Below are positions 8,034 to 42,000 of a stretch of 64,000 nt of DNA, one piece after another (positions within the stretch are counted from its first letter, which is position 1; every line of letters begins with the position of its first letter). Both the position numbers and the translations under genes were made by a program. Location: positions 1 to 64,000 of IMG/VR virus record IMGVR_UViG_3300037189_011323; one strand, 5' to 3'. The notes under the pieces were generated by a model. The model was not told the origin of the DNA and ran no database searches. It was given only the letters and a program-made list of their open reading frames with translations. Origin of the DNA: an uncultured virus (IMG/VR IMGVR_UViG_3300037189_011323). Taxonomy: Duplodnaviria > Heunggongvirae > Uroviricota > Caudoviricetes.

Positions 8034-8876
8034 ATGCAAAATTCAAATCCACTTGCTAAACATTTTCGTCAGCCAGCAGTATTTCTTAAACTGCCTAGTG
8101 GTGGAAAATATTGGGCACCAGATAGTTTAGACCTTCCACCAAATGGTGAAGTAGGTATTATGCCAATGACAGCCAAGGATGAAATACTATTACGCACACC
8201 AGATGCACTTATGAATGGTCAAGGTGTAGTAAATGTAATACAAAGCTGTGTGCCTGCTATTAAAAATGCTTGGGCAATGCCAACTATAGATGTTGATGCA
8301 CTTCTTATTGCTATACGTATTGCAACTTATGGTGAAACCATGGAAATGGATAGTAAATGTCCTAAATGTGAAGCAGAAAGCCGCCATGGATTAGATTTAA
8401 GTAGAGTTCTATTTGGCGTTAGAGCACCAAATTATAATCAAATTGTAGAAATAGATGGATTAAAGATTAAGTTTAAACCACTTAACTATGTGCAAAGCAC
8501 TAAAAATAACATTGCTGGATTCGAAGAACAAAAGATTATACAGTTATTAAACAATGAAAACATTGATCCAGATACACGCAAAGCACAGTTTGATATGCAT
8601 CTACAAAATATTATCAAAAGTAATATAACTTTGTTGAGTGGTGCCACAGAAAGTATTACTACTGAAGACGGAACTATTGTTACTAATCCAGAGTTTATAT
8701 CACAATTCTACGATAATACTAACAACCATATTATTAAAACTGTTCAAGCAAAATTAAGAGAATTTGCTGATACAGCACAATTACCACCTACACGTGTGCA
8801 ATGTGAAGCATGTGATAACGAATATAATGTTAATGTAACTTTTGATTACGCAAATTTTTTCGAGCCACTATCTTAA
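8034..8876 (+). CDS. gp26: gp26-like baseplate hub/tail assembly chaperone with two CxxC pairs
   Basis: LKLPSGG, PMTAKDEILL, D.LLIAIRIATYGE, CPKC and CEAC; ends just after a slippery A AAT TTT TTC run. Confidence 0.75.
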   Translation: MQNSNPLAKHFRQPAVFLKLPSGGKYWAPDSLDLPPNGEVGIMPMTAKDEILLRTPDALMNGQGVVNVIQSCVPAIKNAWAMPTIDVDALLIAIRIATYGETMEMDSKCPKCEAESRHGLDLSRVLFGVRAPNYNQIVEIDGLKIKFKPLNYVQSTKNNIAGFEEQKIIQLLNNENIDPDTRKAQFDMHLQNIIKSNITLLSGATESITTEDGTIVTNPEFISQFYDNTNNHIIKTVQAKLREFADTAQLPPTRVQCEACDNEYNVNVTFDYANFFEPLS

Positions 8877-9091
8877 CTCTCACCCAAGAAGAATTATTGA
8901 AGTTAGTGGCGGATTATGAGGGTGAAGTAAAGAGTATTAAAAAGAATATTCTTAAAATGTGTTGGTATATGCGTGGTGGTGTCACTTATGACGAACTCAT
9001 GGATATGAGCGTAACTGAACGTAACATTATCGGTAGCATTATTGAAGAAAACTTGGAAACTACTAAAAAGTCAGGTATGGCTTTCTTCTGA
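8852..9091 (+). CDS. Downstream chaperone segment (gp51/GT-like), probably expressed by -1 frameshift from the gp26-like gene
   Basis: The -1 frame is open from 8846 to 9091 with no ATG before codon M at ~8957 and no RBS (the track uses a TTG at 8897). Encodes CWYMRGGVTYDELMDMSVTER. Confidence 0.65.
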   Translation, partial: KFFRATILTLTQEELLKLVADYEGEVKSIKKNILKMCWYMRGGVTYDELMDMSVTERNIIGSIIEENLETTKKSGMAFF

Positions 9092-9100
9092 TCAGTTTTA

Positions 9101-9160
9101 AGATGCCTACGGCATCTGTTCAGGGACTATCGTCCCTTCACTTTCTTTCTTTCTTTCATT
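9101..9160 (+). terminator. Tandem hairpins plus a pyrimidine tract; likely terminator of the gp26/gp51-like unit
   Basis: AGATGCC-tac-GGCATCT (9101-9117) and AGGGAC-tatc-GTCCCT (9122-9137), followed by (CTTT)4. Confidence 0.55.
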
Positions 9161-9179
9161 TCTCTTCTAAGATTTAATA

Positions 9180-9525
9180 TTAGTTTCATTTAGACTGGAT
9201 TTTGGACATAGATTTCCTTAAGCAGGAAATCCATATCCAAACAGCTTCATTTGAGCTATCATAAGGACATTAGCAAACGGAACTTGAAACCAAGTGGGGC
9301 GGTTAGCCTGTACCCCTTCACATCCTGTAGATTTTACCAACGGACCTACTATAAACCCTTGCTAACGAACTTATATTAGTAGAGGTTGCTTTTTCTCAGA
9401 GCCTCAATCATTTAGCCTAACGTTTGGCCAAACGATTCCATCATAGCAATGTCGGGGTGCTACCAACCTTCAGTTAATACCTATTTGTGGATATGCTGCC
9501 TAAATTGCCTGTGAGCCAAAGGTGA
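9180..9525 (-). ncRNA. Candidate large structured non-coding RNA (family not recognised)
   Basis: No ORF. At least 8 stems; mismatches in the long stems resolve as G-U pairs on the minus strand; a loop has a complementary downstream partner (pseudoknot). Confidence 0.6.
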
Positions 9526-9554
9526 GTTATAATCTATATATCGTAAAATTAAAA

Positions 9555-10112
9555 TTACCAGAGATTTTCTTCAAAGCCTAATTGTATTGCTATTCGTGTT
9601 TCTGGAATGTTTTCTACACTGTGTGGTACAAAAGCATTCAACAGTGTCCATTTATACAATGGAACTACAATACTGTCAATTTCTTTTACCTGGTCATACT
9701 CTAATTGTAGCCCACGTGAAAGATTAATAGAACTGTCAATTGCCTCGTAAAAAACAGTTCTATGATGTTCTCCGCCTGTTTGTATCAAATACATTAGTGT
9801 GTATTTTCTTGTTCTGTCAATATGCGGAGCAACCATACTACCCCGCACTACTGTTGTTTGAGCCAAACTACAGCCATTAAACTTATCACTTATATTAGTT
9901 TTAATCCAATCAAATAGCTGTGGATGCAGTGATTGTTTATGAAATCTTTTGTTTTGCTCCTCTATATCATTACGAACTATAGTTCTGTCCATGTATGGTA
10001 TAGTTGGATTTTGAACATAAGGATCAAATATATCTTGCGAAGTATAATTTAAAGTTAGATCAATTAACTGTGTTGGAACACTTGGTAAATTGTCTAATAT
10101 CTTGTAATGCAT
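9555..10112 (-). CDS. Putative 2OG-Fe(II)/cupin-type dioxygenase
   Basis: HxD (APHID), distal His (VPHSVEN) and Arg (RIAIQ), the facial-triad pattern of the DSBH fold; TAATG-coupled to the upstream gene. Confidence 0.6.
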   Translation of the reverse strand: MHYKILDNLPSVPTQLIDLTLNYTSQDIFDPYVQNPTIPYMDRTIVRNDIEEQNKRFHKQSLHPQLFDWIKTNISDKFNGCSLAQTTVVRGSMVAPHIDRTRKYTLMYLIQTGGEHHRTVFYEAIDSSINLSRGLQLEYDQVKEIDSIVVPLYKWTLLNAFVPHSVENIPETRIAIQLGFEENLW

Positions 10113-10966
10113 TACTCACCCCTAATACTTTTAATAATTTTTATAAATTTGTTTTCACTTGTAATTTCTATTCTACCAAATTCATTAACAAAATCTTTCC
10201 AAGATTGGTTATTACGAATTGTCTTGATTTGATTGTTTATATTTTGAATTTGTTCTTGAGATAAGTTGGCACCAACTAAAACTATACTATCTTGCAATAG
10301 TGGTAGATCCACAGCCTTTGGTAGCAATTTATATACGCTTGGTATTGTGACACCATCTTTAACAATATCACTTTCACTACCACTAAACAAACAATTTACT
10401 TTGTCTAAATTTTTACCTAACCATTCACTATCAACAAGAGTATAATCAAATTCATTGCCTAGAATTACTTCTCTAGCCTTACCACTATTGCCTACAATTA
10501 CAATATTTGCACTGTCTCCATTAGGAAACGCACCTATGATTTTTTGAATTATATTATTGCTTGCTGTGGTAATTGCAATGTTTTTGCGAGTAGTCTTATC
10601 TAAGAAATTCTGCATTCCTAAATTAGTTTTATCTTTGCGATAACAAAGACTGTAACTATAATAGTATAGTTCTTGGATCACTTTAACATTATCACTATAT
10701 GTTAGTTTACAAGCATCATCAACTACACCCCAACTACCTGTAAGATAAACTAATGGTTGTTTTTCATTCTCAATTGCATTTTTAACAACTGCACAATTTG
10801 GTAGAGCATTTATGGTATTTTTGATACCAGATTTTTCCTGTATTTCTTGTAGTATTGTTGCAGTTTTACCAGTAACTCCACCTGGTGGAACGCCAACTGT
10901 AATATCAAAAGCATATGCATTTGATGCAAATAAAACTGCAAATAATGTTGTAATATATCGTATCAT
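10112..10966 (-). CDS. TctC/Bug-like extracytoplasmic substrate-binding protein
   Basis: Real start is probably ATG 10966 (AAGGAG RBS). Signal peptide ends ANAYA-like (SNAYA), then ITVGVPPGGVT, resembling the Bug/TctC PxxxGG motif; adjacent to tctA. Confidence 0.6.
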   Translation of the reverse strand: MIRYITTLFAVLFASNAYAFDITVGVPPGGVTGKTATILQEIQEKSGIKNTINALPNCAVVKNAIENEKQPLVYLTGSWGVVDDACKLTYSDNVKVIQELYYYSYSLCYRKDKTNLGMQNFLDKTTRKNIAITTASNNIIQKIIGAFPNGDSANIVIVGNSGKAREVILGNEFDYTLVDSEWLGKNLDKVNCLFSGSESDIVKDGVTIPSVYKLLPKAVDLPLLQDSIVLVGANLSQEQIQNINNQIKTIRNNQSWKDFVNEFGRIEITSENKFIKIIKSIRGE

Positions 10967-10976
10967 TCTATTCTCC

Positions 10977-12278
10977 TTAAAAATATAAATTATACACAAT
11001 GTGTATAACTGAATCAAATTGTTGCGCCAGCAAAAACCCTAATACTAGTGGTAATAAGTCATGTCGTCGTAACAAAAACCCAATCGGTGCAAAAATTGCA
11101 CTACAAATCAAATAAAAAGAAAGTTGATTTGTATTATACCCCATTTGAAATACTGCAAATAATAACAAAACTATACTTAAAGTATTAAAAAGTCTTAATC
11201 TTTTAACCATTGCTTTAACTAAACTTGCAGCAAGCGGCCAACTGCAAACAAACCCAATTATATTTGCGAATCCAAAAATAGCAAATATCCACCAAAAATT
11301 ATTAACCAACCAATCATAACTGTAATTTAAACCACGAGTAGATGTAATATCATATAGTAGATATTCACTTGCATTTATTGGTATCGCAAAACAAAACAAT
11401 GGAATAAAACTAGCAACCAATCCACTGTTATGTGCACTATCACTAGAAACCAAACCACGTATATCACCATCTTTGTTATATGTTTTACGATTAACAAACT
11501 TTTCAACAGCCCATGCAAAATTACTGCTAATAGTAATACCCAACGAAGGTATAAAACCACAAACAAAACCAATTATACTACCTCGCATAAAAGTATAAGG
11601 ATTTATATCAATAATGTATTTTTTGCTTTTTATGTTAACTAGATTTTTGATTTGTGCTGATGACGATAACATCATGGGTAAACTATATAGAAACACTAAT
11701 ATAATAATAGTAGGTATACCGCCATATAGATAAGGAATATCAAAGGTGGCGAATTGTTGTTTTGTTACTGGATCATACCCTACTTTACCTATAAAATAAC
11801 CACTTACCAAAAATACCGCAGATAATAATATATTTTTACTAGTGAATATAGTAATAAGGTAAGTTAACAATAATATACAAAACTGTAGTTTGAAATTGTA
11901 TAAAACAGAGTAATTGTTACCTATCCAAAAAATGCTACAAGCTAATATGACTGCTACAATACTACCTAAAAAACTTGCCATAGCGCCACTGCCTAATGCA
12001 GTATTAGCTTGACCACGTAGTGTTAACGCATATCCTTCTTTGACACTTGGTAAACTAGTAGTTTCAGTTGGTATACCAAGTATTGTTGCACTAGCACCAC
12101 CAAAATACTGTGTACATGTAACCATACCAATATAAAAACTTAAAACATTATGTGGGTCTAAATCAATTAATAGTGGATAAAACAATACCATAGCCAAACT
12201 GTTATGTAAGCCAGGCATAATTCCAACAAATAAACCAGTTGCGCACCCTAATAATGCAAAAAGTATTATTTCACTCAC
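10977..12278 (-). CDS. tctA: Tripartite tricarboxylate transporter large permease, TctA family
   Basis: Multi-TM protein with GIMPGL, YFGG.SATILGIP, EGYAL..RGQA, G..PSLG and SDSAHNS motifs. Confidence 0.85.
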   Translation of the reverse strand: MSEIILFALLGCATGLFVGIMPGLHNSLAMVLFYPLLIDLDPHNVLSFYIGMVTCTQYFGGASATILGIPTETTSLPSVKEGYALTLRGQANTALGSGAMASFLGSIVAVILACSIFWIGNNYSVLYNFKLQFCILLLTYLITIFTSKNILLSAVFLVSGYFIGKVGYDPVTKQQFATFDIPYLYGGIPTIIILVFLYSLPMMLSSSAQIKNLVNIKSKKYIIDINPYTFMRGSIIGFVCGFIPSLGITISSNFAWAVEKFVNRKTYNKDGDIRGLVSSDSAHNSGLVASFIPLFCFAIPINASEYLLYDITSTRGLNYSYDWLVNNFWWIFAIFGFANIIGFVCSWPLAASLVKAMVKRLRLFNTLSIVLLLFAVFQMGYNTNQLSFYLICSAIFAPIGFLLRRHDLLPLVLGFLLAQQFDSVIHIVYNLYF

Positions 12279-13368
12279 CTAACAAATACCTTTTGCTCCA
12301 TGTTCCAACTAAACCGTTGTGTATATTGTTTCCATTTATAAAATATGGATCAACATTATTTGAAATCCATTCTAAACCTGTAAAATATTCCGTAGCAAAA
12401 TCACTGTTACTATCCCATATCCACCGATTCTTTTCTTTTAATATTGATTTTTCTTTTCCTAAACTAAAAGTTTTATCACTCCAATATGGATAACATGCGG
12501 CACGTACCGCAGAAAAATATTCGCCACCATTGAAATTACCATCATTATTGAAGTTTTTTTCTATAAATTCAAGTGTATAAGTTTTATTAATATAATTTTT
12601 CACTAAGTGTGATTGTTTTATTGTTACTAATGGCGAGTCAGGACTTACATAAAAAGGTTCTAAACTTATTGGTGATATTGAATTATAACTATTTCCAAAA
12701 TTATAAGCATTAGTTACATCTAAAAAAGCACTATACCAAACACCATTTTCAAACCAAATTCGTGGTTTTTCTAATCCAATTATTACACCTACTTTATTTT
12801 TTTCACTCTTCTTTAACCAATCACTATTTTCAAAAATTAATTTTGGTTTACATAGTTGTTCTAGTGATAGTGATGGTTCACTTGTCATAAACCACTCTAT
12901 ATTTGGCATTATACCTTTTTCAAATTGTGGTTTCATATCCATTTTTGAAACTTTTATACCATTAATGATAATGATTGAGTTAAGCAATTCACTACCAGCA
13001 TTTAAAACTTCACTGTTTGCTAAATTGTTTTGTAAATCATAACTGCTATACCAATAAGCAACTTCATCTATTTTAATATTATTTTTGAGAAATACTTTAA
13101 GTGCATTACTGCTATCGCTGCCACCGCTATAAAGTAAAATAAGATAATCATACTTTTGACGCAGCTGTAATGCTCGTTCCATGTATAAATCTTCAATATT
13201 TGATTGCGGTTCATTTTTCCAATCATGACTACCAAAAATATTATCATGGTAATAAAAACGTATATCATAGCTGTTTCGTGATTGCGCCTCTATAATAGTC
13301 TGTAGTTTGTTATAATAAATGTGTTGATTGTCTAACAACCAATGACCAAACTGTGCTGCATTACTCAT
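12271..13368 (-). CDS. PP-loop (adenine nucleotide alpha-hydrolase-like) protein
   Basis: YDYLILLYSGGSDS carries the SGGxDS PP-loop. Start reassigned to ATG 13368, just after a sigma70-type promoter. Confidence 0.6.
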   Translation of the reverse strand: MSNAAQFGHWLLDNQHIYYNKLQTIIEAQSRNSYDIRFYYHDNIFGSHDWKNEPQSNIEDLYMERALQLRQKYDYLILLYSGGSDSSNALKVFLKNNIKIDEVAYWYSSYDLQNNLANSEVLNAGSELLNSIIIINGIKVSKMDMKPQFEKGIMPNIEWFMTSEPSLSLEQLCKPKLIFENSDWLKKSEKNKVGVIIGLEKPRIWFENGVWYSAFLDVTNAYNFGNSYNSISPISLEPFYVSPDSPLVTIKQSHLVKNYINKTYTLEFIEKNFNNDGNFNGGEYFSAVRAACYPYWSDKTFSLGKEKSILKEKNRWIWDSNSDFATEYFTGLEWISNNVDPYFINGNNIHNGLVGTWSKRYLLGE

Positions 13369-13373
13369 AAAAA

Positions 13374-13402
13374 ACCTTAACAAAAAAATATATATAAGTC
13401 AA
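13374..13402 (-). promoter_or_regulatory. Sigma70-type promoter of the accessory operon (leaderless)
   Basis: TTGACT-17 nt-TAAGGT with TGn extension, 5 nt before ATG 13368. Confidence 0.65.
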
Positions 13403-13409
13403 TTTTTGT

Positions 13410-13512
13410 TAGCAGTTTACTGCATACAGCACGGCGTCTCTTGGCTCTAACCAGATAAAAGGATCACTATCCTTTGCGTCGTTTTTATTGCTGACGCCAC
13501 TATGTGGCGTTA
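13410..13512. other. Compact GC-rich structured intergenic element
   Basis: Stems AAAGGAT/ATCCTTT, ACGCCAC/GTGGCGT, CAGC/GCTG and ACGGCGT/GCGTCGT within ~100 nt. Confidence 0.45.
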
Positions 13513-13524
13513 CGAAATTATTTA

Positions 13525-14040
13525 TTATGCACAAGCAAGTGCTACAAAATCTTTATTCAATGACCAAAAACGATCATAATCCATAATTGCCCAACGAATA
13601 TCTTTATACTGATATAGCATATGATATTCTACAAACAGCGGCACATCATAATGTTGGTCAAATTCCAATGCTACAAACTTGCCTTTACGGTTAAACTTCA
13701 TAAACAATATATTAAAGTCACCTTCATCAGCAACATCCATAAGCTGATCTATCCAACCATCTAATTGTTTACAACTACCGCTGAATAGTTGATGAAATGG
13801 AAAGTCACCATAGTTTTTACATTCGCAATTAAACTTTGGAAAACTTTGCCCAGGTATAATATCACCTTTGAATGATCTTATTTGACCTTCATGTAATATT
13901 TCTTTACGTTTTGTATTAGCACCGCCAATATAAGCACCACTATTAGGAACACGGATAAATGGTTCACCATATAATTCTGTTAGGTGTTTGGCAACTTCAC
14001 GTTCCCAACTATTGCCTTTTGTTTTACTTTTACTGGTCAT
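13525..14040 (-). CDS. Holliday junction resolvase, Hjc-like PD-(D/E)xK nuclease
   Basis: KGNSWEREVA, RVPNSGA, GDII and ECKN; directly downstream of gp46. Confidence 0.8.
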   Translation of the reverse strand: MTSKSKTKGNSWEREVAKHLTELYGEPFIRVPNSGAYIGGANTKRKEILHEGQIRSFKGDIIPGQSFPKFNCECKNYGDFPFHQLFSGSCKQLDGWIDQLMDVADEGDFNILFMKFNRKGKFVALEFDQHYDVPLFVEYHMLYQYKDIRWAIMDYDRFWSLNKDFVALACA

Positions 14041-30012: not shown

Positions 30013-33000
30013 ATGGCAAAACGTAAAAGTGAAAACTTTTTACCACAATCTTTTAGAACATTAAGCAATCGTAGATTTTTAAATGCCACTATAGATCCAC
30101 TTATACAAGAGCCAAGTCTTAAGAAGATGTATGGTTATATTGGACAACAGGACCAAAGTCCTGTGTTTGAAAAAGGTGACTATTACATTAATGAAAACGA
30201 TAGCTATAGTCAGTTCTATCAATTAGAACCAGGTGTAGTAATCAAAAAACGCCAGTATGGAACTAACACTTATAAAGTAGATAATGTTTACAACTATGTT
30301 GATTTATTAAACCAGATTGCAGCTGACGGTGGTATTAACAACAATCATGATAGATTGTTTAGTAATCGTTATTACAGTTATAATGGTTTTATTGACCTTG
30401 ATAAGTTAACAAACTATCGTCAGTATTATTGGGTGCCAGGCGGTCCACTTACAGTTGACGTAACTGCAGAAAATACACTTACACAAAAAGATTTTTATAT
30501 TCACCGTAACAGTTATGTTGCTAATAATCAAACTGAATTACAAAGTGCTGCACTTGGTGCAACTGGTTATAGTGTGGATGGTTACAACAATGTTATTAAT
30601 CCTACACTTACGCTAGTTCGTGGTGGTAGTTATAATTTTTATGTAAATCAAGACACTGACTTCTGGATTCAAACTGAAATTGGTGTAGATGGTGTAAGTA
30701 GTGTACAGAATAATATTTCAACTCGTGATGTATTGGGTGTTTCTAATAATGGAGCAAAAAGTGGAACTATAACATTTACAGTTCCATTAAGCACTGCACA
30801 AGATTATCTTATTAACTATCCAACAATTAGCCAAGCTGTTGATTTAATTGTTGATGATGTTACTTACGAAGAATTACAAGGACAAAATTACGATACATTT
30901 ATTCTATCAAACGGATTAGATGGTGTTCGTGCATTCGATGGAAAGTATATTGTTTTAACAAGCACAACTGGTTGGGGAGATATAGCATCTACACAATGGG
31001 GTGGTGTTTGGCGTATAAATGTAGGCAGTGATCCAGCTGCAGCCAATTATCGTTTAATGAATTTAACATATATTGCAGATTGGACAGTTTTAAACAAAGT
31101 ATTTGTTACTCAAGGTGATGTATATGGTCACGTTTATGCATACAAAGATTTATTTGGTGTTATTCAAAAATTTCCAACATTAAGTGCAGCACAAAGTGTT
31201 CTTTATTATGTTGATGCTACAAATCCTCTTGTGTACGGAACTATTCAGCTTGTTGATCCACAACCAAATAGTTTACTAAATGTTAATGATATACTTGGTC
31301 GTGAAAACTATACAAGTCCAAATGGTGTACAGTTTACAAGTGGACTTAAAGTAAAGTTCACTGGCATTGTCGTGCCTGCTGAATATCAAGGTAATGAATA
31401 TATTGTTGAAGGTGTAGGTAGCAGTATTAAACTTATTAAATATGCTGACCTTGTTACACCAGAAATAATTAATACTAATCTAGGTAGTAGTTTTGGTAAT
31501 AGTCGTGGTTATGATGCTGATGGCACTGGTTTCGATGGAACTACAAATAGTCCAGAACAAAAAGATTATGTAACAATTAATCGTGCTAGTATTGATGGTA
31601 ATAGTTGGAGTCGTAACAATCGTTGGTTCCATCGTGATGTGCTGCAAGCAGCTGCTGATTATAATAATGTAAGTTATAGCTTTGACAGCAATCAACAAGC
31701 AAAGCGTCCTATTATTGAGTTTTTACCTAATATAAAACTTTACAACTATGGAACAAACTATGCTGGCAGTGTCACTTGTATAGACAGTGTTACAACAAGT
31801 GCTTTTGCACAAGTAGAGGGTTTTAACAGTTATGCTGTAAAGACTGATGGTGTTTATAATAGTGATGGTATACAATTATTGAATGGACTGTCAGTTATCT
31901 TTACACAAGAAACTGATCCTGTAAAGCGTGCAACTCTTTATCGTGTGCAGAATAATAAAACACGTGCAAGTGCAACTTATAATATACTAACAAATGCTTT
32001 TACTAACAGTGGTGTAAATTATCTTAACATAAACAATATTGCAAATCTTGCTGTTGGTCAGCATGTTACTGGTAGTGGTATCCCAAACTTTACTACTATT
32101 ACAAGTATTGATACTGTATTTGATCGTGTTTATATAAGCAATAATTTAACACAAGATGTTCCTGCAGGAACTACAATTACATTTGATAACAGTTATGATC
32201 AAATACATCTTGTACCTATTAAAACATTTACCAATGGCGATACTGTTGTTGCTATGGAAGGTGTTGAGAATCAAGGTAATATGTTTTATTACTTGGATGG
32301 TGAGTGGATTCGTTCACAGATTCGTAACAGTCGTCCACAATTTCCACTATTTGATGTCATCGATAAAAATGGTTATAGTTTTGGTGATCAAACAGTTTAT
32401 GCAAGTAGTGACTTTAGTGGTAGTGAACTATTTGGTTATGCAGTAGGAACTGGAACACGTGACAGTGAATTAGGGTTCCCACTTGTTTATAAGAGCATTG
32501 GTAATCTTGGTGACATTGTATTTGAAAACTATTATCAAACTGATACATTTCATTATAGTTTAAATCAAGTTGACCAAGAAGAAAACATTAATCAGGGTTT
32601 TGCAGCGGTTATTGTTGGTTGGAACAACTATACTCTTGCTAATGGTTGGTATCGTGTAAGTGATAAATCTAAACAATACATTACTAAAGTTTTCACTGCA
32701 AATGCAGTTCAACTCAATAATTTTGATCTTGGTGTTGTTTATGATAACAGCTATTATGAAAATAATATATTCGTTTATGTAAATGGTTCACTACAATCAA
32801 ATTCAACATATGCATTACAGACAAGCAGTTTAACAAGTGTAGTTGTTTTTAATCAAGATTTAAATGTAAATGATCGTGTATTTGTTAAAATTTATGGAAC
32901 AAGCACAGTGTACAAAGAAACATACACTATGCCACGCAATCTCACAAACAACAGTGAGAACACAGAATTTACAACTATTACGCTAGGTCAAGTTCGTAAT

Positions 33001-36000
33001 CACTTGATTGAGATTGGTAATAATTTATTAGATTTGGTTGGCGAACCTGCTGGCGCAAATAATTTCCGTGATTTAAACTTTAACTATGTTGGTGGTAAGT
33101 TGTTACAACACAGTGCAAGTATGCGACCAGCTGCACTACTATTTGCAAACCGTGATGTAGATCCAATACAATTCATTCGTTATGCATCTGATAGCTATGG
33201 TATCTTTAAGAATCAGTTATTGAATTATATCAGTAATACAGAGTTTCCAAATCCAACTAATTATCGTGAAAGTTTGGATATGGTATTAGCAGAGTTTAGT
33301 AAAGTGGCAAATATTGGTCAACCATTTTATTATACTGATATGGTTGGATTTGGTACTGATTTTATTAAAAATAGTTATACAGTTGCTAACACAACATATC
33401 GTCGTTATAATTTGACACAAGATTTTGCAGATGACACTAAAGGTTATCGTGCATTGTATGTCTATCTTAATGGTGTGCTATTACTTAAGAATGTAGATTA
33501 TACTATTGGAACAAGAACTATTACTATTAATGATAGTGTTACTCTTGTACGTAATGATAAGATTGAGGTGTATGAATACAATAGCACACAGGGTTGCAAC
33601 ATACCATCAACACCAACTAAACTTGGTATGTATCCAAAGTTTAAGCCTGAAATAGTAACTGATGACACATATGTAACACCAACTCTTGGTATTATCGGTC
33701 ACGATGGTAGCTTTACAAAAGGTTTTGGTGATTACCGTGATAATATTCTATTAGAATTTGAAAAACGTGTGTATAACAATATTACTACTACATATGCTGA
33801 AAACAGTGATGTTGATTTAAGTAGTGTTGTGCCAGGTGCTTTTCGTGTTACTAATTATACAATTGATGAATGGACACAATTACTTGCACCATCATATTTG
33901 CGTTGGGCACATATTAACAACGTTGATATTTTTACTAATTCAACCGTAACAGGTGATCCATTTACATTTAACTATGCAACTGGAACTGACAAATTGTTTG
34001 CAAAACCAGTGCCTGGTTATTGGCGTGGTATCTACAAGTATTTTTATGATACCAATCACCCACATACAAAGCCATGGGAAATGTTAGGTTTTACTCAACG
34101 TCCAACATGGTGGACAAATCGTTATGGACCTGCACCATATACAAGTGAAAATGGTGTGTTGTGGAGCGACCTTGAGGCTGGTTTTGTTTATAGTGGAAAT
34201 CCTAATGATTCATATTATAATACTCGTTACGCAAGACCTGGTCTTACAAGTATTATTCCTGTTGATGAGCATGGTAATTTATTAAATCCAAACCAGTCTG
34301 TATTACTCAATTACGATGCAAATTATGCTGCACAGAATTGGGTAGTTGGAGATCAAAGTCCAGCAGAAACTGCATGGCGTCGTAGCGTAGATTATCCTTT
34401 TGCTGTTATGATGGCCTGGTGTCTCGCAAAACCAGCGGAATGGACTGCATTAAAATACAATACACGAGACCTTGCTTATAATACACTTTTAGAACAGTTT
34501 ATTAATAAAAAATATAACAATCGTCAGTTTGATTTTACTGCTACTGATGATACTGATTTTATACCAGGTTACAATGTTTGGTTGCGTGATTATCTAACAA
34601 ATAATAACCTCGATATTACTGAAAATTGGATTAACGTAGCAAATAATAGCACATTTAATCTTGTATACAAGATGGGTGCTTATACTGATAAGAGTTATCT
34701 TACTATTGTTGCAGACCAAGTAAGTCCACAAAGCACAAACAGTAGTGTTATAATTCCGCAAGAAAACTATCAAGTTAAAGTAACAAAGAGTGCACCAGTT
34801 GCTCGTGCTGTTTATAGTGCAGTTATTGTACAGAAAGTTGTTAATGGTTATCAAGTAAGTGGATTTGACCGTGAGCGTCCATACTTCTTAACCATTCCAA
34901 GTCGTGTAAGCAATAACAACTATACTATCACTGTTGGCACTGAACGTGCTATTGTTTATATGGATAGCAGCGATAATGTATTCAGTTATCCTTATGGTAG
35001 TATCTTTAATACAAAACAACAAGTGGTTGATTTCCTTGTAAGTTATGGTCGTTATCTACAATCACAGGGCTTTACATTCGAGGATGTTTTAGGTGATAAA
35101 ACTACTAAGAGTGATTGGGTATTAGCTTCAAAAGAATTCTTATTCTGGAATCAACAGCAGTGGGGTGACGATACAATTATTTCCTTGACACCTGCGGGCA
35201 CAGATGTTAAGTTTATAAGTACATTTGGTGTTGTTGATACATTATCAAATACAAACAATTATACCAAGGTTGTTAACAGTGATAATGTTACACTAACTGG
35301 TAGTGATTATCGTGTATATCGTGATGATAACTTATTCCAACTTGAATTAAAAAATGCACAAAAAGGCGTGCATCTTATAGACTTGGCGATTATTCAGTAT
35401 GAGCATACACTTATACTTGATAACAACACTGTGTTTAATGATATTTTGTATGATGAGCAAGTTGGTAGCCGACAATTCCGTCTGCGTCTTGATGGAGCAA
35501 AAACAAATGATTGGAATGGTAGTCTTTATGCACCTGGTTTCTTTGTAAATGTAAGTGAAGTTCCGCAATGGGTTGCTTATACTGACTATTATAAGGGTGA
35601 TATTGTTCTATTCAAAAATCAGTATTATGCCGCACAAGATTTTGTACCAGGCACTGCACAATTCAAGAGTAGCAATTGGTATCCAATCAATGGTGATTTA
35701 TTAAGTAAAAACCTTATTCCAAACATGGCAAGTGGTGCTGCACAGTTTATTAATTTCCATGATCCAGATAGCACTGACCTTAACAGTGCTGCTGATTTAT
35801 TGAGTAAAGCCGAAACAGGATTTAGTCCACGTCAATACTTTGCTGATTTAGGGTTGGATAACACAAGCCAATACAAGTTCTACCTTGGTATGGTAAGCCA
35901 AAAAGGAACACAGGCTGTTCTTAATGCATATCTTCGTAACAAACAAAAGCGTATTGATAGTGATATTAAGTTAGTAGAACAATGGGCAATTAAACTTGAT

Positions 36001-39000
36001 AATTATGGTGGTACAAATCAAAACGATAAGTTAGAATTTAATATTGGTAATGCTATAACAATTAATAACCAATATCTATTTGAACTTATTAATCAGACTG
36101 ATCAACGTATCGCTGATACTAATACAGTTAAGCCAAGTGATTTACTTTATAAGCCACGCATTTATACAACAGATATATTTGCAAAAACACAAAACAATAA
36201 AGAAGTTATACCAACTGTTGGACCAGTAAATCCAAATGATGTTGATGCAACTGTATATGATATTAACAAAATTTATAACATAAGTCCACTTAACACTATA
36301 TTAAGTGAAGGCAGTAAAGTATGGATTGCAGCGGATAGTGCTAACCAGTGGGGTGTATATCGTTTAAGTCAAACTGGTCAAGTATTTGTAACTTATATCA
36401 ATCAGATTAGTCCAACTGAATTACAGTTCACGACAAATCTGCCACATAATTTAAGTCAGTATGATTACATTATGTTGAAGAATGGTCGTCTTGCAGCACC
36501 ACAAACTGGTGGTGCAATTACCGATATGAGTGGTTTCTATCGTGTTAAGACTGTTACCAACACAACATTTAATGTGAAGATTGCTGATAATACAACTATC
36601 GGCACGGGTGCACTTAATGCAATTCTTTTTAAACTTATAAATGTTCGTTATACAACTGCTAATGACTTTACAGGCTTTGTTCCTGTTCGTGGTTGGAATA
36701 GCGGTGAAATTGTTTATATTGATGCTGGACCAGATGGTTATAATGTTTTACAGAACAGCAATAGTTGGGTTTATAGTCAAACGAAGAGTCCTGTGTTTAC
36801 AACACCAAGCGACAATTATGGTAGTAGTGTGCGAATTAATTCAACACAAGGTTTTGCTATTGTTGGTGCAAGTGTAAAAAATACAACTGGTAGTGCTTTT
36901 GTTTATGGAAAGCGTGAGGATAATTCATTCCAAGAAATTGGTATTCTAACACCTGATACTGGCGTAACTACGTTTGGTGCTAATGTAGATATTAATGATA
37001 GTAATTTTGCTTTTGTAAGTGCACCTGGTGCATATAAAGGTGTTGTATATACAGCTAATGTAAACAGTCAACAAGTCCAATTAACACAAGCAATTCACTA
37101 TGATAACCTTTATGCTATCAGTGCTGGATTTAGTCAAACAAATAACAATATTTTGTTAACTACAGTTTATAGTTTTGATAGTAATGGTAATATTGCACAA
37201 CAAGCAAGTTATAGTTTAGATAATTTTGCTGTTGGTATGGGAGTAGGTGGTGCTGGTGTAAATGCTGGTACAGTTATTACAAGTATAACAACTAAAGCTC
37301 TTACAAATACTATACAACTTGCTACATCAAATGGTAATAGTAGCATTTTCAGTATTACAACTGGTGACACCGCTACAATATTGCAAGCTAACAATAGTAT
37401 TTTAAAAACACTATATGCAAATATTACAAGTAGCAATTCTAATGTTTATATTGGTAATACTGGACAAAGCATTACTGGGTTATATGCTAATGGTTCACAA
37501 CCAGTATTGGGTAATGGTATTCCTGCTGGTTCATTCATTACAGCAATAAGCAATATTACTGGTTATAAAGTTATTACCTTAAACAATAATGTTTCAATAA
37601 CAAACAAAAGTCTGTTAACATTTGTTCGTAGCAACGCTAACATCGTTCAATCTTCAATATCTAGTATAAGCACAACCGCAAACAATTATTTAATTGTAAG
37701 CGGAGCAACAAGTCTTTATGGTGCAGCTAATGGTTTACCAATTATTGGTGGATATCTTCCTAACAGTAGTGTTATTTCTAACCTTGTCGTCGGACCCGCT
37801 TATAACATTCTTGGTGTAAGTGATAATGTAAATCTAAATGCATCTACAAAGATTGCAGTCTATCCCAATGTTCAACCAACAAGTAATTTTGGTTATAGCA
37901 TAAGTGCAAGTGGTGATGGTAAGTGGTTATATGTTGGTGAACCAACAACAAATAGTGTTTATGTTTACAAATACACTTATGTGAATGCAAATAGCAGTCT
38001 GCGTCAAGGTGATGGAACTCAAACCAGTTTCACTTATCCAACTGGTGCAACTGGTAGTGCAAATGATATTAAAGTTTATGTAAATGGTGTTCTTAAGATA
38101 CCAAACTATCATTATATTAAAACACCTGGTCAAGATATTATTACATTTGATATAGCACCAAGTGCAAGTGATATTATTAATCTTGTTTATGAAGATCACT
38201 ATGCAGAAGTTAATCGTATTGTTACTGATGATCCTGATGCAAGTGGATTTGGAACAAGTGTGAGCACCAACTATGATGGTAGCACAATTGTAATTGGTGC
38301 GGCTAATAGTAGTGTAAACAGTGTAACAACTCTTGCAAATAGTGGTAAAACATATGTATTTGACCGCACAGCAGAAATATTTGTTGCTAATGGTGTTGCA
38401 AAAACTTTCCAATTAAGTAATGCACTTAGTAGTCTTACAACAATTACAACACCTGATTTAATTACACATCCAAGTGTAACAATTGATGGTGTTGACACGG
38501 ATGCGACATTTAATTATGCTACAAACCAAGTTACATTTGCAAATGCACCTGAACGTGGTAGCACTGTTCGTGTTCAAACAAATCAATTTGTTAATACTCT
38601 TATAAGTTATACTGATGTGGGTCAAGAAAACAGTAATTATGGTTCCGCAGTAAAAATAGATCGTGATGGCACGACGGCATTTAGTGGTGCGCCTGGTTAT
38701 GCTACAAGCAGCACACAGAATGGTGCAGTATTTCGTTTAATTAATACTCCAAGAATGTATGGTAATGTAGTTGGTAGTAAAACTGGATTCAGCATTGCTG
38801 CAAATAGCACAATACGAATTAACGATTATCTTGTAACATTTGGTCAAACATTTAGACCACCATATGCTCCAATTTATTACAGCAGCAATGTTGACCAAGT
38901 AATAACAACTATTAATAATGCTGGCATACCATATGTTACTGCTGGTAAAACACCAAACGGTGCTATCTATATTACAAGTAGTGATACTACTGCAATGCCT

Positions 39001-42000
39001 ATGTTAAAACTACGTAACGAAGGCAGTGACATTCTTGGAACATTTGGAATTACACAGTGGAAAACTGTGCAAAAACTTACAAATCCTATTGCACAAGATA
39101 CTGCACGTTTTGGTGAAATACTTGCGCTAAGTCCACATGCCAATAGCATGGTTGTGGGTAGCACATTATCAAATACAAAAACAACAGTTACATTTGATAG
39201 CAAGACTACTACATTCGACCGTTTTGGAACACGTTTCCGTGATACTGTGTATCGCAGTGGTGCCGCTCACCTTTATGAATATCAAGCAGTTGCAAATGAA
39301 GACTATCAAAACTATGGTAGCTTTGCTTATGCAAGTCTTGTTCAAGATCAATTTGCAAATAGCTATGACCGTTATGCAAGTGGTGTAGATATCAGCGATA
39401 ACTTCTTGATGGTTGGTGCACCACATGCACATGTACTTGGTAATCCAGTTGGTGCAATGTATATATACTACAATCAAAATGCGGCTCCTGTGTGGCAAAC
39501 TATACGCAGTGGTGGTATTGATTTTGATAGTCGCAATATTGACCGTGTTTACTTGTATAATAGCACAACTGCAAGATTAATTGCTGAATTACCAGTGCTT
39601 GATTTACCTTACGGTTATCTACCAAATAGCAGTGAAAGTTATATTGATTATACTATTAACTATGATCCTGCTGTTTATAATCAAGCACCAACAACTACAA
39701 GTTTCAGTTTTGATCGTAAAAATGCTTGGGGCAAGCAACAAGTTGGTAAATTGTGGTGGGATATTAACAGTATCAAGTATTATGATAATACACAAGGCGA
39801 TAACGTTAACCGCTTTAATTATTGGGGTCTTGCTTTCCCTAATAGCACAATAAATGTTTATGAATGGATTGAAAGTGATGTTCTACCAAAGAATTACAGT
39901 GGTAGCAGTGTAAACAATACACCACTTTATACAGTTAATGATGTTTATTGTTCTCAAGTTACCGTTGATGAAAAAACTGGACAAGCGGTTACAAAATATT
40001 ATTTCTGGGTTAAGAATAGTATTCTTGCTAACACAAAGCGTCCAAGTGCACGTGAAATACAAACTGCACTTATAAGTCCACGTAACAACAGTGAACCATT
40101 TGCAGCAGTGATTAATAAAAATGCAATCGGTATATTTAATGCACAAAATCTTGTAAGCATTGATACCAATCTTGCCATTGAATATAAGAACACTCTTGAA
40201 CCACAACTTATCCATAGTGAATGGACTATGTTTGACGATGGCACTGACTTGGGCGTTGCTGATGAGTTCTTGAATAAGTTGAATGATAGTTTAACTGGTC
40301 AGGATGTCAGTGGTCGTATTGTTCCAGATTTTAACCTTCCTATTGGTCAAAAGTATGGTATGAGTGTTGATTTGCGTCAGAGTTTATTCAAAGACAATTA
40401 CTATGCACGTATGTTGTTTATTGAAAAGATAAATCAGATTTGCATCAAATATCCAATGGTGTTGACTCGTGTTGATGCTATTGCTCAACTTAACAACATT
40501 GATCCGATTCCCGACTCTACTGAATATACACTTACTGTCAATAACTTAACAGAACTAGGCTATATAAACACTGTAGCCTATCCTATCGGCACACGTGTTC
40601 TTGTAATACAAGATAGCAATAGTTATAACAATGGTTGGAGTTTGTTTACTTTAGTGTTAAATTCAACAAGTTATGCAAGACGTTGGGAATATGTTCGTGT
40701 TCAAACTTATAATGTTAATGATTATTGGACATATGCTGATTGGTATAGCACAAAATACAACCCACAAGCACCATATAACTATACAGTTACAACTGACAAT
40801 GATATTGCTAACCTTCAATTAAATGTAAATGATTTAATTTATGTAACAAATAGTAATAGCGGTGGTTGGAAGTTAGTTCTTGTAAACACTAATGATCTTG
40901 AATTAGTTGCACAACAAAACGCAACTATACAATTCACTTCAAATCTGTATAGTCTTGTTGATGCTGCACAAGGATTCCAAACAAATAGTTTCCAAAGTGT
41001 AGGATTTGATACTGACAGTAATCTTGAATTTAGTGCAATATTTGCTGTGATTCGTGATTATCTTCTTACTAATGAATATCGCAGTGAATATAAAGAAACT
41101 ATTGCACTTCTTATTGATATTGTTGCAAGTCAACATCAACAAACTGATTGGATGATGAAAACAAGTCTTGTTGATTTATATCATCGTGTTCGTGGTTTGG
41201 ATCAGCTACCTGTTTATCTGCCACAACCAGAAAATACAGTAACTGATTTCTTCAATGAAGTTAAACCATTCCATACAAAACTAAAACAATATGTTGCAAG
41301 ATATGATAACAGCAATGATATTGATACAGCATATGCAAGTATTACTGACTTTGACTTGCAACCATATAAGAATGCATTAACTGGCAAGTATCGTAGTCCA
41401 CAATTAGGTAACAGTCTTGATACTGATACTTTGAATAATACAGCAGTGTATCAACCATGGGTAAACAATCACAAATATAGTATTGATCTTGTTACAATGG
41501 TTGATGGTGGTGCTGGTTATGATGGTTCAACTACTGCGGCTGTAATTGGCGATGGAAGTGGTGCTATTGTTAAACCTTATATTCTTAATGGTAGTGTTTA
41601 TACAATTGAAGTTATAAATGCAGGTCAAGATTATACCTATGCTACTGTAGAAATTTATGGTATTGGTGTTGGTGCCAAAGCTGAAGCAGTTTTAGGAAGC
41701 AGTCTTGCACGAAATATTAATGCAACAGTTAAATTTGACCGTAACCAATATTTTAATAATATACAAGATTGGGCGGCTAACACAAGTTATACAATTGATA
41801 CTGTTGTTGTATATAATGCAACACCTTATAGATGTATTACTGCACACACAAGTGGTTCTACATTTGATGCAACCAAGTTCTTGGTATTGATTGTTAAAGT
41901 TTGGTATCCAAAAACTGATTATAATGTTGGTGATATAGTTGTTTATAATAATAGTAGCTATGTTGTTGATACAGCATTTACAAGTGATCTTATATTCAGT

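What the first reader, a model, noticed from the sequence alone, without database searches (positions are those of the whole stretch)
9180..9525. Candidate large pseudoknotted ncRNA on the minus strand of the longest intergenic region
Seen: this is the only ~450-nt gap in a tightly packed genome, and it is full of helices. (a) An 18-bp hairpin, 9201-9218/9224-9241, whose two mismatches both become G-U pairs on the minus strand. (b) A stem at 9346-9382 (CUACU, then AUAAGUUC/GGGUUUAU, three G-U pairs on minus) whose loop GUUAGCAA (9359-9366) is complementary to UUGCUAAU at 9269-9276, which suggests a pseudoknot. (c) AGGAUGU (9320-9326) pairing with AUGUCCU (9264-9270), enclosing GGGGU-aca-GG-cuaa-CC-GCCCC and ACUUG-guuu-CAAGU. 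(d) GAGGCU..AGC-aa-CCUC, GUAGCA..UGCUAU, and a perfect 14-bp palindrome CGTTTGGCCAAACG (9421-9434). The consistent G-U polarity argues for selection on an RNA rather than a DNA cruciform. I cannot match it to tRNA, tmRNA, RNase P, 6S or group I/II intron cores. Inference: an unclassified phage structured RNA (ribozyme, RNP scaffold or regulator).
Basis: partly seen in the sequence, partly recalled or inferred. Interest (0 to 1): 0.85.

Follow-up and report, generated by a model that had tools for sequence, protein, structure and literature searches.

The report
New pseudoknotted jumbo-phage RNA family
The gap holds a real, strongly conserved folded RNA gene of about 300 bases that is shared by well over a hundred uncultured giant-phage genomes, fits no catalogued RNA family, and carries two co-evolving identical sequence boxes whose purpose is still unknown.

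Summary
Window 9175-9474 (minus strand) encodes a conserved structured RNA. P1, P2, P3, P4, P7, the long hairpin and the pseudoknot carry compensatory changes. G.U outnumbers A.C 195 to 20 in paired cells, which fixes the minus strand. The minus strand folds at z = -4.4, the plus strand at -1.7. Rfam 15 gives no match.

The family is large. The core motif hits at least 120 IMG/VR contigs, and a covariance model matches 46 + 70 loci. It was not found in cultured relatives or in prokaryote genomes. The RNA is single-copy in a complete 338-kb RaK2-like jumbo phage, usually convergent with the baseplate-hub gene and next to a variable cargo island.

New here:
- Two boxes flank the 3' hairpin (CUC-core / UCU-core). 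Their cores are identical within each RNA but differ between lineages: 70/93 own pairs against 13/4810 cross-lineage pairs.
- 9-nt-spaced YAGGCW repeats lie 5' of the core.

Best reading: an autonomous trans-acting RNA that binds a partner through its twin boxes. Function is inferred, not shown. Earlier scan reports (e1-6070833, e1-6036128) met this RNA on other DNA.

The parts
9175..9474 (-). Conserved core of the RNA (RNA positions 1-300; position 1 = 9474)
   Evidence: Alignments A2/A3. The covariance model R1 covers 9260-9474 at 244 bits. Related contigs stop resembling the window at 9472 (table 7).
9443..9463 (-). P1 hairpin (GUAGCA / UGCUAU) with the conserved loop CCCCGACAU
   Evidence: Pair CG:14/UA:5. 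All 6 pairs covary among 45 sequences. The loop is invariant at C20 C21 G22 C24 A25.
9421..9434 (-).
   Evidence: 4 pairs, 2 covary among 19 sequences and 4 of 4 among 45.
9382..9418 (-). Junction AUAGGCUAAAUGAU and P3 (GAGG/CCUC) with the invariant internal loop CUCUGAGAAAAAGCAA. This is the most widely conserved part of the family.
   Evidence: P3 is 100% paired and all 4 pairs covary. The motif is kept in the most distant members and hits at least 120 viral contigs.
9346..9379 (-). P4, a 13-bp hairpin whose loop GUUAGCAA (9359-9366) forms the pseudoknot
   Evidence: 11 of 13 pairs and 13 of 13 pairs show compensatory change.
9269..9276 (-). 3' strand of the pseudoknot (UUGCUAAU), pairing with the P4 loop
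   Evidence: 8 pairs, 100% standard in 19 of 19 sequences, 2 pairs with changes on both sides. Other complementary sequence pairs occur in distant lineages.
9320..9342 (-). CCGUUGG ... CUACAGGAUGU segment (a and b). Segment a can pair with the P1 loop (96.8% paired, no covariation) or with b (88.5%). Segment b can pair with c (9264-9270).
   Evidence: The alternatives are not resolved.
9282..9316 (-). P6 (GGGGU..GG-CUAA-CC..GCCCC, nearly invariant) and P7 (variable hairpin)
   Evidence: P6 is invariant in 19 sequences. P7 covaries at 2 of 5 pairs and 5 of 5.
9243..9257 (-). Box m1 (AGCUCAAAUGAAGCU), possibly the loop of a 3-4 bp mini-hairpin
   Evidence: Identity covariation with m2. The closing pair switches GC:13/AU:9.
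9201..9241 (-). P8, the long 17-18 bp hairpin between the two boxes
   Evidence: The G+C-rich top of the stem with a variable loop is kept in all lineages inspected.
9182..9196 (-). Box m2 (AGUCUAAAUGAAACU), 61 nt downstream of m1, with the same variable core
9475..9530 (-). 5' flank. Three copies of the 9-nt-spaced YAGGCW repeat (UGGCUC, CAGGCA, UAGGCA), then AUAUCC and an A/T-rich stretch. Probably part of the transcript or its control region.
   Evidence: Repeats average 3.65 per 100 nt upstream against 0.43 in control windows, and the modal spacing is 9 nt.
9100..9140 (.). Two conserved hairpins between the RNA and the 64-aa ORF. On the plus strand the second is followed by a T-rich run, so it is a terminator for the hub operon. 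They may also end the RNA.
   Evidence: Covariation in both hairpins (columns 471-515). A terminator-like site lies at 9122-9137 on the plus strand.

Best explanation
Window 9175-9474 (minus strand), with about 60 nt of 5' flank, is the gene of a previously uncatalogued structured non-coding RNA of a clade of uncultured RaK2-like jumbo myophages.

Shown:
- It folds into a 5' domain of about 215 nt. This domain has hairpins P1-P4, P6 and P7, an H-type pseudoknot between the P4 loop and a strand 3' of P7, and many invariant unpaired bases.
- A 3' module follows: box m1, a long hairpin P8, then box m2.
- The two boxes begin with fixed CUC and UCU. The core that follows is the same in both boxes of one RNA but differs between lineages.

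Inferred:
- The RNA is an autonomous, trans-acting molecule rather than a leader of a particular gene.
- The 5' domain is a rigid scaffold or binding core.
- The twin boxes, and perhaps the YAGGCW repeats, are duplicate recognition sites. They bind two copies of one partner whose specificity co-evolves with the phage lineage. That partner could be a dimeric phage or host protein, or a sequence-specific nuclease that the RNA soaks up or that trims it.

The claim that this is a real, selected, structured RNA family I hold at about 0.95. The confidence given below is for the trans-acting, partner-binding mechanism.
For: Structure and selection:
- 94.8% of 1588 cells are paired and 35 of 39 pairs show compensatory change among 45 distinct sequences. 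Slid controls pair in at most 50.5% of cells.
- The pseudoknot is 100% paired with 2 double changes, and different complementary sequences serve in distant lineages.
- G.U 195 against A.C 20.
- z = -4.41.
- The core is identical in L055, whose hub protein is only 60% identical.

Autonomy:
- Of 92 unique members, 54 have only a convergent ORF downstream, 16 have none, and only 8 have a same-strand ORF alone.
- The upstream gene varies. It can be a 185-aa ORF, a 370-380-aa ORF, the PDDEXK gene with no cargo at all, or a SegE-like homing endonuclease.
- In the L029 lineage the RNA lies on the hub's strand behind divergently oriented genes, so it needs its own promoter.
- It is single-copy in the complete 338-kb genome.

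Twin boxes:
- At least 7 of 8 bases after the anchors are identical in 70 of 93 unique RNAs, against 13 of 4810 cross-lineage pairs. There are 21 distinct 6-nt cores.
- No complementary partner was found inside the RNA or its flanks. In the complete genome the only exact matches to the complement are the RNA locus itself. This points to a partner in trans.

Precedent, recalled from the literature and not tested here: lambdoid nutL/nutR boxB sites match within a phage and differ between phages because each binds that phage's own N protein.
Against: - No transcript, 5' end or 3' end is known.
- No sigma-70-like promoter was found on the minus strand upstream.
- The phage's late-promoter motif ATAAATA is absent directly upstream of the RNA. 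The nearest copy on that strand is at 13525, ahead of the cargo operon. In this window the RNA could therefore be the tail of that operon's transcript.
- No partner protein was identified. The always-adjacent 64-aa ORF also occurs in relatives that lack the RNA.
- Single-base concerted changes between close lineages (A/G/U at one box position) are easier to explain by base pairing with a nucleic acid than by protein recognition.
- Several mutually exclusive helices (a:b, b:c, c:d, d:e) are each 84-95% paired. That looks like a conformational switch, a feature of cis regulators.
- 22 of 92 members may have a same-strand ORF downstream.
Confidence: 0.4

Rival explanations
1. A cis-acting conformational switch (riboswitch-like sensor or co-transcriptional timer). 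The 5' domain senses a ligand or factor. A relay of competing helices (P1 loop:a, a:b, b:c, c:d, d:e) then sets whether the 3' module folds. That would control read-through at the convergent junction, giving antisense transcription into the hub genes, or the expression of downstream genes where they exist.
For: - Each alternative helix is well paired: a:P1-loop 96.8%, a:b 88.5%, b:c 84.2%, c:d 94.7%, d:e 86.4%.
- Segments c and e, and b and d, resemble each other, as competing strands of attenuators do.
- Many unpaired bases are invariant, as in aptamers.
- In L106 and L116 a Shine-Dalgarno-like sequence and an ATG follow m2 within about 20 nt.
- In L029 two same-strand ORFs follow the RNA.
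Against: - Most members have no same-strand gene downstream: 54 + 16 of 92.
- P8 is not followed by a U run, so it is not an intrinsic terminator.
- The similarity of c and e can also come from two parallel modules that form together (b:c and d:e), with no switching.
- The identity of m1 and m2 is not explained, because no shared pairing partner was found.
Confidence: 0.2
2. A processed RNA. The two boxes are twin cleavage sites, cut either by the RNA's own 5' domain (a new large ribozyme) or by a sequence-specific endoribonuclease. Cutting would release the 61-nt P8 unit. In the manner of a type III antitoxin unit or a phage pseudo-antitoxin, that unit could stay bound to the nuclease and neutralise it.
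For: - Two identical sites flank a folded unit at a near-constant spacing: 61 nt in 16 of the 17 clade A/B RNAs and 48-63 nt in most other lineages where the repeat finder picked the m1/m2 pair.
- The fixed anchors CUC and UCU sit next to a lineage-specific core.
- Many cores are A-rich (AAAUGA, AACAAA, AGAUAA), like the sites of known toxin endoribonucleases. That resemblance is recalled, not tested.
- The large conserved 5' domain has a pseudoknot and invariant junctions, as ribozymes do.
Against: - No cleavage evidence exists.
- Nothing in the RNA is complementary to the boxes, so there is no internal guide sequence.
- No adjacent toxin-like nuclease gene was seen in the 38 loci mapped.
- Only one and a half repeat units are present rather than a tandem array, and the two 27-nt repeats are only about 60% alike outside the core.
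- Rfam ribozyme families do not match.
Confidence: 0.15
3. A DNA-level or single-stranded-DNA element, such as a replication origin, a recombination hot spot or a protein-binding site array. The boxes and the YAGGCW repeats would be iterons around a hairpin, and the folding would occur in ssDNA.
For: - The direct repeats have lineage-specific sequence that is identical within a genome and flank an inverted repeat. This is the layout of iteron-type origins (recalled).
- 9-nt-spaced repeats lie upstream.
- Cargo genes and a homing endonuclease insert next to the element.
- G.T wobble is tolerated in ssDNA, so strand polarity alone does not prove RNA.
- T4 oriF lies next to genes 25/26 (recalled).
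Against: - A 215-nt multi-helix fold with a covarying pseudoknot and 35 of 39 compensated pairs is typical of RNA and unprecedented for a dsDNA-phage DNA site.
- The cumulative GC skew shows no turn at 9.3 kb. Its minimum is near 16-20 kb, where gene orientation flips.
- No HUH/Rep-type gene was seen nearby.
Confidence: 0.06
4. Not functional. The region is a chance-structured intergenic spacer or the remains of, or an unrecognised, small protein gene.
For: Two short ORFs overlap the region (9218-9340 minus, 40 aa; 9251-9379 plus, 42 aa).
Against: - The element is conserved beyond its neighbouring proteins.
- Substitutions are paired rather than codon-periodic.
- Lengths vary in hairpin loops.
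- 0 of 100 shuffles fold as well.
Confidence: 0.01

Closest known systems
Large 'ornate' orphan bacterial and phage ncRNAs (raiA, ROOL, GOLLD, OLE motif RNAs)
   Same: Long (over 200 nt), multi-helix and pseudoknotted, with many invariant unpaired bases. Found by comparative genomics, often in phage or prophage DNA. No consistent downstream gene and unknown biochemical role.
   Different: No match to any of these Rfam families. This RNA is shorter than ROOL, GOLLD and OLE. It is tied to a fixed place in a jumbo-myophage backbone rather than to tRNA clusters. It has twin identity-covarying boxes and 5' 9-nt repeats, which are not described for those RNAs (recalled).
Lambdoid nut sites (boxA-boxB) and their N proteins
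   Same: A short single-stranded box sits beside a G+C-topped hairpin. Copies within one phage match each other while differing between phages, because they bind that phage's own partner.
   Different: Here both copies lie 61 nt apart in one RNA, flank a single hairpin, and are attached to a 215-nt structured domain. The hairpin loop is not conserved. No N-like protein or downstream terminators were identified. The location is at the end of transcription units, not the start.
Type III toxin-antitoxin antitoxin RNAs (ToxI, CptI, TenpI) and phage pseudo-ToxI
   Same: A folded RNA unit bounded on both sides by the same short A-rich site. There is precedent for a phage-encoded decoy.
   Different: There is no tandem array of full repeats and no adjacent endoribonuclease gene. 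The unit is a plain hairpin, not a 36-45-nt pseudoknot repeat, and it is joined to a large extra domain.
Riboswitches with expression platforms
   Same: A conserved pseudoknotted sensor-like domain followed by competing helices.
   Different: At least 70 of 92 members have no same-strand gene downstream. There is no terminator U-run. No known aptamer family matches.
phi29 prohead RNA (pRNA)
   Same: A phage-encoded structured RNA gene in the structural-gene neighbourhood (portal two genes away), acting in trans as part of an RNP.
   Different: There is no sequence or Rfam match. pRNA multimerises through complementary loops, whereas here the two boxes are identical, not complementary. T4-type packaging is not known to need RNA (recalled).

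Membership tests
Any Rfam 15 family (4227 models, incl. RNase P, tmRNA, 6S, SRP, group I/II introns, riboswitches, ROOL, GOLLD, raiA, OLE, HEARO) | Score at or above the family's gathering threshold | tested here: not met
   0 matches in the whole window. With E up to 10 over 8900-9800 there were only 4 chance matches of 15-17 bits to a CRISPR repeat and to miRNA hairpins.
tRNA / tmRNA | tRNA-like domain detectable by ARAGORN (permuted tmRNA included) | tested here: not met
   0 genes in the window.
Riboswitch / cis-regulatory leader | Lies 5' of a same-strand regulated gene in most members | tested here: not met
   Of 92 unique members, 8 have only a same-strand ORF downstream, 14 are ambiguous, and 70 have none or only a convergent ORF. 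In the window the next gene is convergent.
Riboswitch / cis-regulatory leader | Expression platform: intrinsic terminator or an RBS-sequestering helix | tested here: not met
   P8 is not followed by a U run. An RBS after m2 was seen only in L106 and L116.
Type III TA antitoxin RNA | Tandem array of full-length repeats followed by a toxin endoribonuclease gene | tested here: not met
   Only a 27-nt partial repeat is present, twice. The neighbours are the hub gene, a 64-aa ORF, a PDDEXK gene, and cargo transporters and enzymes.
Retron / DRT-type template RNA | A reverse transcriptase encoded with the RNA | tested here: not met
   No PF00078 match in the complete 338-kb genome.
CRISPR mini-array | Near-identical repeats of 24-40 nt around a variable spacer | tested here: not met
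   The period of 61 nt fits. But the two repeats are only about 60% alike, and the 'spacer' is a conserved hairpin that pairs with part of the second repeat.
Structured ncRNA (generic criteria: covariation, strand polarity, stability) | Compensatory base changes above controls | tested here: met
   35 of 39 pairs. Covariation score 0.585 against 0.152 shuffled and at most 0.086 slid. On the independent MAFFT alignment, 25 of 74 pairs against 14.8 shuffled, 0 of 500 shuffles as high.

The most novel reading that the evidence does not exclude
The RNA is the core of a new kind of phage ribonucleoprotein or ribozyme. The 215-nt pseudoknotted domain would be catalytic or would organise a machine. 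The twin boxes would be programmable, lineage-specific address sequences, read twice by base pairing with a host or phage nucleic acid. They might act as two identical guides, or as two cut or join sites that release or circularise the 61-nt hairpin unit. It would then be a sequence-programmable RNA device of jumbo phages with no described counterpart.
Probability: 0.15. Interest if true: 0.95.

Novelty: categorically new. Interest (0 to 1): 0.8.

Why it matters
Few large structured RNA classes remain to be found. Each past one (RNase P, tmRNA, riboswitches, bridge and omega RNAs) opened new biochemistry.

This class has more than a hundred members, a covariation-proven pseudoknotted fold, and a fixed place in the backbone of uncultured giant phages. 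It is conserved better than the structural proteins beside it.

Its twin boxes obey an identity rule: 21 different cores, always the same in both copies. That signature implies a specific partner still to be discovered, and it gives a direct experimental handle.

The element also marks the hot spot where these phages swap nutrient-uptake and enzyme cargo and where a homing endonuclease sits.

If the partner is a host defence nuclease or a phage assembly factor, the RNA would be a new counter-defence or assembly principle.

Tried and rejected
- Sequencing runs. No RNA holder is listed. The four runs found (one study) are labelled RNA-Seq but are probably DNA and are held as contigs. They only showed relatives' contigs matching 9096-9472, so they say nothing on expression.
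- Named phages. blastn of the window RNA and of two distant members found nothing. The model R1 gave only noise (12 bits or less) around the hub genes of Phosso, Atu_ph07, XaC1 and RaK2. Rfam found nothing there either.
- Prokaryote genomes. The 21-nt P6 motif hit 12 contigs, but R1 matched only the motif itself, so these are chance hits.
- Internal partner for the boxes. None was found from -450 to +400, nor by a column scan using L014 and L004. The one complementary column, position 97, is already paired within P4. In the whole 338-kb genome the only exact matches to the complement of the boxes are the RNA locus itself. Box-like copies are not enriched in the window: 10 found, 9.3 expected.
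- Reverse-transcription template idea: there is no RT gene.
- The 5' repeats as a coding tripeptide repeat or tmRNA-like tag. Rejected, because TAG-containing units stand in the same phase in several loci.
- Sigma-70 promoter upstream on the minus strand: none found.
- Late promoter: ATAAATA is absent directly upstream of the RNA.
- First automatic test of box identity using predicted hairpin borders. It was weak (own mean 7.4, cross mean 6.0) because the hairpin finder swallowed the boxes. It was replaced by the anchor-based test.
- Brute-force helix and mutual-information scans on the MAFFT alignment were too noisy to use alone.
The 3' module is therefore not in the model.
- Literature. Three full-text searches found no description of this RNA. 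In PMC10690425 I saw passages only. A motif search of its supplements gave 0 hits, but 3 files could not be searched. The RNA may be among that paper's unnamed candidates.

Full report
WHAT IS THERE

The window is part of an uncultured jumbo myophage. The same sequence lies in a complete 338-kb genome with terminal repeats. Its genes include:
- a T4-type portal;
- gp46/gp47-like nucleases;
- a gp26-type baseplate hub at 8034-8876.

The closest cultured relatives by hub protein (30-34% identity) are RaK2-like jumbo phages: Phosso, Atu_ph07, XaC1, RaK2 and 121Q.

The gap 9092-9554 lies between two convergent units. On the plus strand are the hub gene and a 64-aa ORF. On the minus strand is a 185-aa ORF that ends a four-gene cargo operon with a TctA-family transporter.

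CHECK OF THE OBSERVATION

- Stability: the minus strand folds at -130.8 kcal/mol, z = -4.41, and 0 of 100 shuffles fold as well. The plus strand gives z = -1.74.
- Known families: Rfam 15 has no match in the window at gathering thresholds and only chance hairpin matches at E up to 10. ARAGORN finds nothing.

CONSERVATION

Loci fetched through the hub protein (49 loci) show that the intergenic core is about 85% identical in DNA where the hub protein is only 65% identical. In L055 the 215-nt core is identical to the window's although the hub protein is 60% identical.

Family size:
- A P6 motif search gave 38 viral and 38 metagenome loci.
- A covariance model of the first 215 positions (R1) then matched 46 loci at E of 1e-4 or less, including hub-linked loci with only 34-44% hub identity.
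R1 matched 70 of 76 of those tried.

Where it is absent:
- The motif's 12 hits in prokaryote genomes are chance.
- Cultured relatives and the named-phage collection gave nothing.
- The RNA is single-copy in the complete genome.

STRUCTURE

RNA position 1 = window 9474.
- P1: 12-17/27-32, with a conserved loop.
- P2: 41-44/51-54.
- Conserved junction AUAGGCUAAAUGAU.
- P3: 70-73/90-93, around an invariant internal loop.
- P4: 96-108/117-129.
- Pseudoknot: P4 loop 109-116 with 199-206.
- Conserved CCGUUGG...CUACAGGAUGU segment.
- P6: 159-179, nearly invariant.
- P7: 180-193.
- Box m1: 218-232.
- P8: 234-274.
- Box m2: 279-293.

On a plain MAFFT alignment of 19 sequences, 93.9% of cells pair and 25 of 74 pairs have changes on both sides. 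The shuffled mean is 14.8, 0 of 500 shuffles reach the observed value, and slid controls pair in at most 42% of cells.

On the model-fitted alignment of 45 distinct sequences, 94.8% of cells pair and 35 of 39 pairs are compensated. This alignment leans toward the model's structure.

The pseudoknot is 100% paired with two double switches. It persists with unrelated complementary sequences in distant lineages, for example 8-9 bp in L023, L036, L106 and L116.

G.U cells outnumber A.C cells 195 to 20, so the folded strand is the minus strand.

It competes with other pairings of similar quality: a:b, c:d and P1-loop:a.

NEW FEATURES

(i) Twin boxes. m1 (ACUC-core-G) and m2 (AUCU-core-A) flank P8, 61 nt apart in clades A/B (62 in L057).
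- After the anchors, at least 7 of 8 bases are identical in 70 of 93 unique RNAs, against 13 of 4810 cross-lineage pairs.
- There are 21 distinct 6-nt cores: AAAUGA, GCAUGA, AGAUAA, GGAUGA, AACAAA and others.
- The repeat extends upstream. The strand after the pseudoknot (c) resembles the 3' strand of P8 (e), giving a bipartite 27-30-nt direct repeat that changes in concert.
- No complementary partner exists in the RNA or its flanks, and in the complete genome the only exact matches to the complement are the RNA locus itself.

(ii) 5' repeats. The 100 nt upstream of the core carry a mean of 3.65 copies of N[AT]GGC[ATC], against 0.43 in control windows.
- 85% of upstream segments have three or more copies, against 1.4% of controls.
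- The modal spacing is 9 nt.
- The array ends in a conserved AUAGYCC element that can pair with the last repeat.
- The same YAGGCU word recurs in the P2/P3 junction and inside P6.

CONTEXT

In 38 loci with 8-kb flanks the order is:
gp47, gp46, PDDEXK gene, [0-6 cargo genes], RNA, then convergent 64-aa ORF and hub, an ORF of about 780 aa, portal.
- Cargo varies: ABC importer parts, TctA, SDR, radical-SAM/SPASM enzymes, methyltransferases and two unknown families.
- In one clade a SegE-like GIY-YIG homing endonuclease sits right upstream of the RNA.
- Three loci have no cargo at all.
- Of 92 unique members, 54 have only a convergent ORF downstream, 16 have none, 8 have only a same-strand ORF, and 14 have both.
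- In the L029 lineage the RNA is on the hub's strand behind divergent genes.

The element therefore behaves as a self-contained gene, not as the leader of one operon.

The phage's late-promoter word ATAAATA has 18 of its 21 genome copies within 60 nt upstream of ORF starts. It is not found directly before the RNA. The nearest copy on that strand, at 13525, heads the cargo operon and a separate conserved leader of about 140 nt.

RELATION TO EARLIER SCAN NOTES

Findings e1-6070833 and e1-6036128 describe cargo operons 'behind' an uncatalogued RNA leader shared by over a hundred contigs. Their stretches share short words with this RNA's core.

In this window two RNAs exist:
- a leader at the 5' end of the cargo operon (13384-13520);
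- the present RNA at its 3' end.

The present RNA is not a leader of that operon, and it also occurs without it. I could not see which of the two the earlier notes meant.

MECHANISM

Shown: a selected, pseudoknotted fold on the minus strand; twin identity-covarying boxes; 5' repeats; autonomy from neighbouring genes.

Inferred: a trans-acting RNA whose twin boxes bind two copies of one lineage-specific partner (0.4).

Rivals:
- a cis conformational switch (0.2);
- a processed or self-processing RNA with the boxes as cut sites, possibly a nuclease decoy (0.15);
- a DNA or ssDNA site (0.06);
- no function (0.01).

None of these can be settled without RNA ends, probing and a partner search. The sequencing runs available gave no expression evidence.

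VERDICT

The RNA belongs to no catalogued family. It is widespread in one group of uncultured giant phages and has an unusual, well-supported sequence rule that calls for a partner. I found no description in print in three full-text searches. One large catalogue of unnamed phage RNA candidates (PMC10690425) could be searched only in part.

Noticed in passing
window 13384-13525 (minus strand): A late-promoter word ATAAATAA at 13525 is followed by a leader of about 140 nt ahead of the cargo operon. The leader is 82-93% identical in L148, L164 and L158 and 71-76% identical in L165 and L171. An analogous but different-looking leader precedes the ABC-importer cassettes in L143 and L157. On its own it folds no better than shuffles (z = -0.86). 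It is probably the 'RNA leader' of the earlier scan notes and a possible riboswitch for the cargo genes.
   Followed up: partly
whole genome G000 (117 kb), e.g. window 5610, 8021, 13525, 17758, 26595: The word ATAAATA occurs 21 times on both strands. 18 copies lie within 60 nt upstream of ORF starts, usually 22-30 nt before the start codon. It is the likely T4-type late promoter of this phage.
   Followed up: partly
window 9555-13383 (minus strand) and loci L139-L176: A hypervariable cargo island sits between the PDDEXK gene and the RNA. It holds either a TctA-type or an ABC-type transporter, plus SDR, radical-SAM/SPASM enzymes, methyltransferases and two unknown families (370-410 aa and 185-211 aa). 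Three loci have no cargo.
   Followed up: partly
L150, L151, L153, L154, L160 (e.g. L151:1565-2431): A SegE-like GIY-YIG homing endonuclease gene sits immediately upstream of the RNA in one clade. This fits the RNA gene being a conserved homing target or recombination hot spot.
   Followed up: no
window 9100-9140: Two adjacent hairpins after the 64-aa ORF are conserved, with compensatory changes and a conserved GAUAG-type loop and linker, in all 8 sequences aligned. The second is a plus-strand terminator. The strand of selection is ambiguous: 4 G.U cells favour the minus strand and 2 favour the plus strand.
   Followed up: partly
window 30013-44709 (plus strand): A single open reading frame of 4898 aa lies within the structural-gene block. 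It was not examined.
   Followed up: no
L055 against the window: The RNA core is identical to the window's, while the neighbouring hub protein is only 60% identical and the 64-aa ORF 79% identical. This implies either extreme purifying selection or recent exchange of the RNA gene between diverged phages.
   Followed up: no
L177 7224-8237 (Phosso), L179 6981-7772 (XaC1), L180 5862-6225 (RaK2): Cultured relatives have unannotated gaps of 0.4-1 kb at the equivalent place, between the hub gene and the gp46/endonuclease genes. Neither R1 nor Rfam matches there. They might hold unrelated RNAs.
   Followed up: partly
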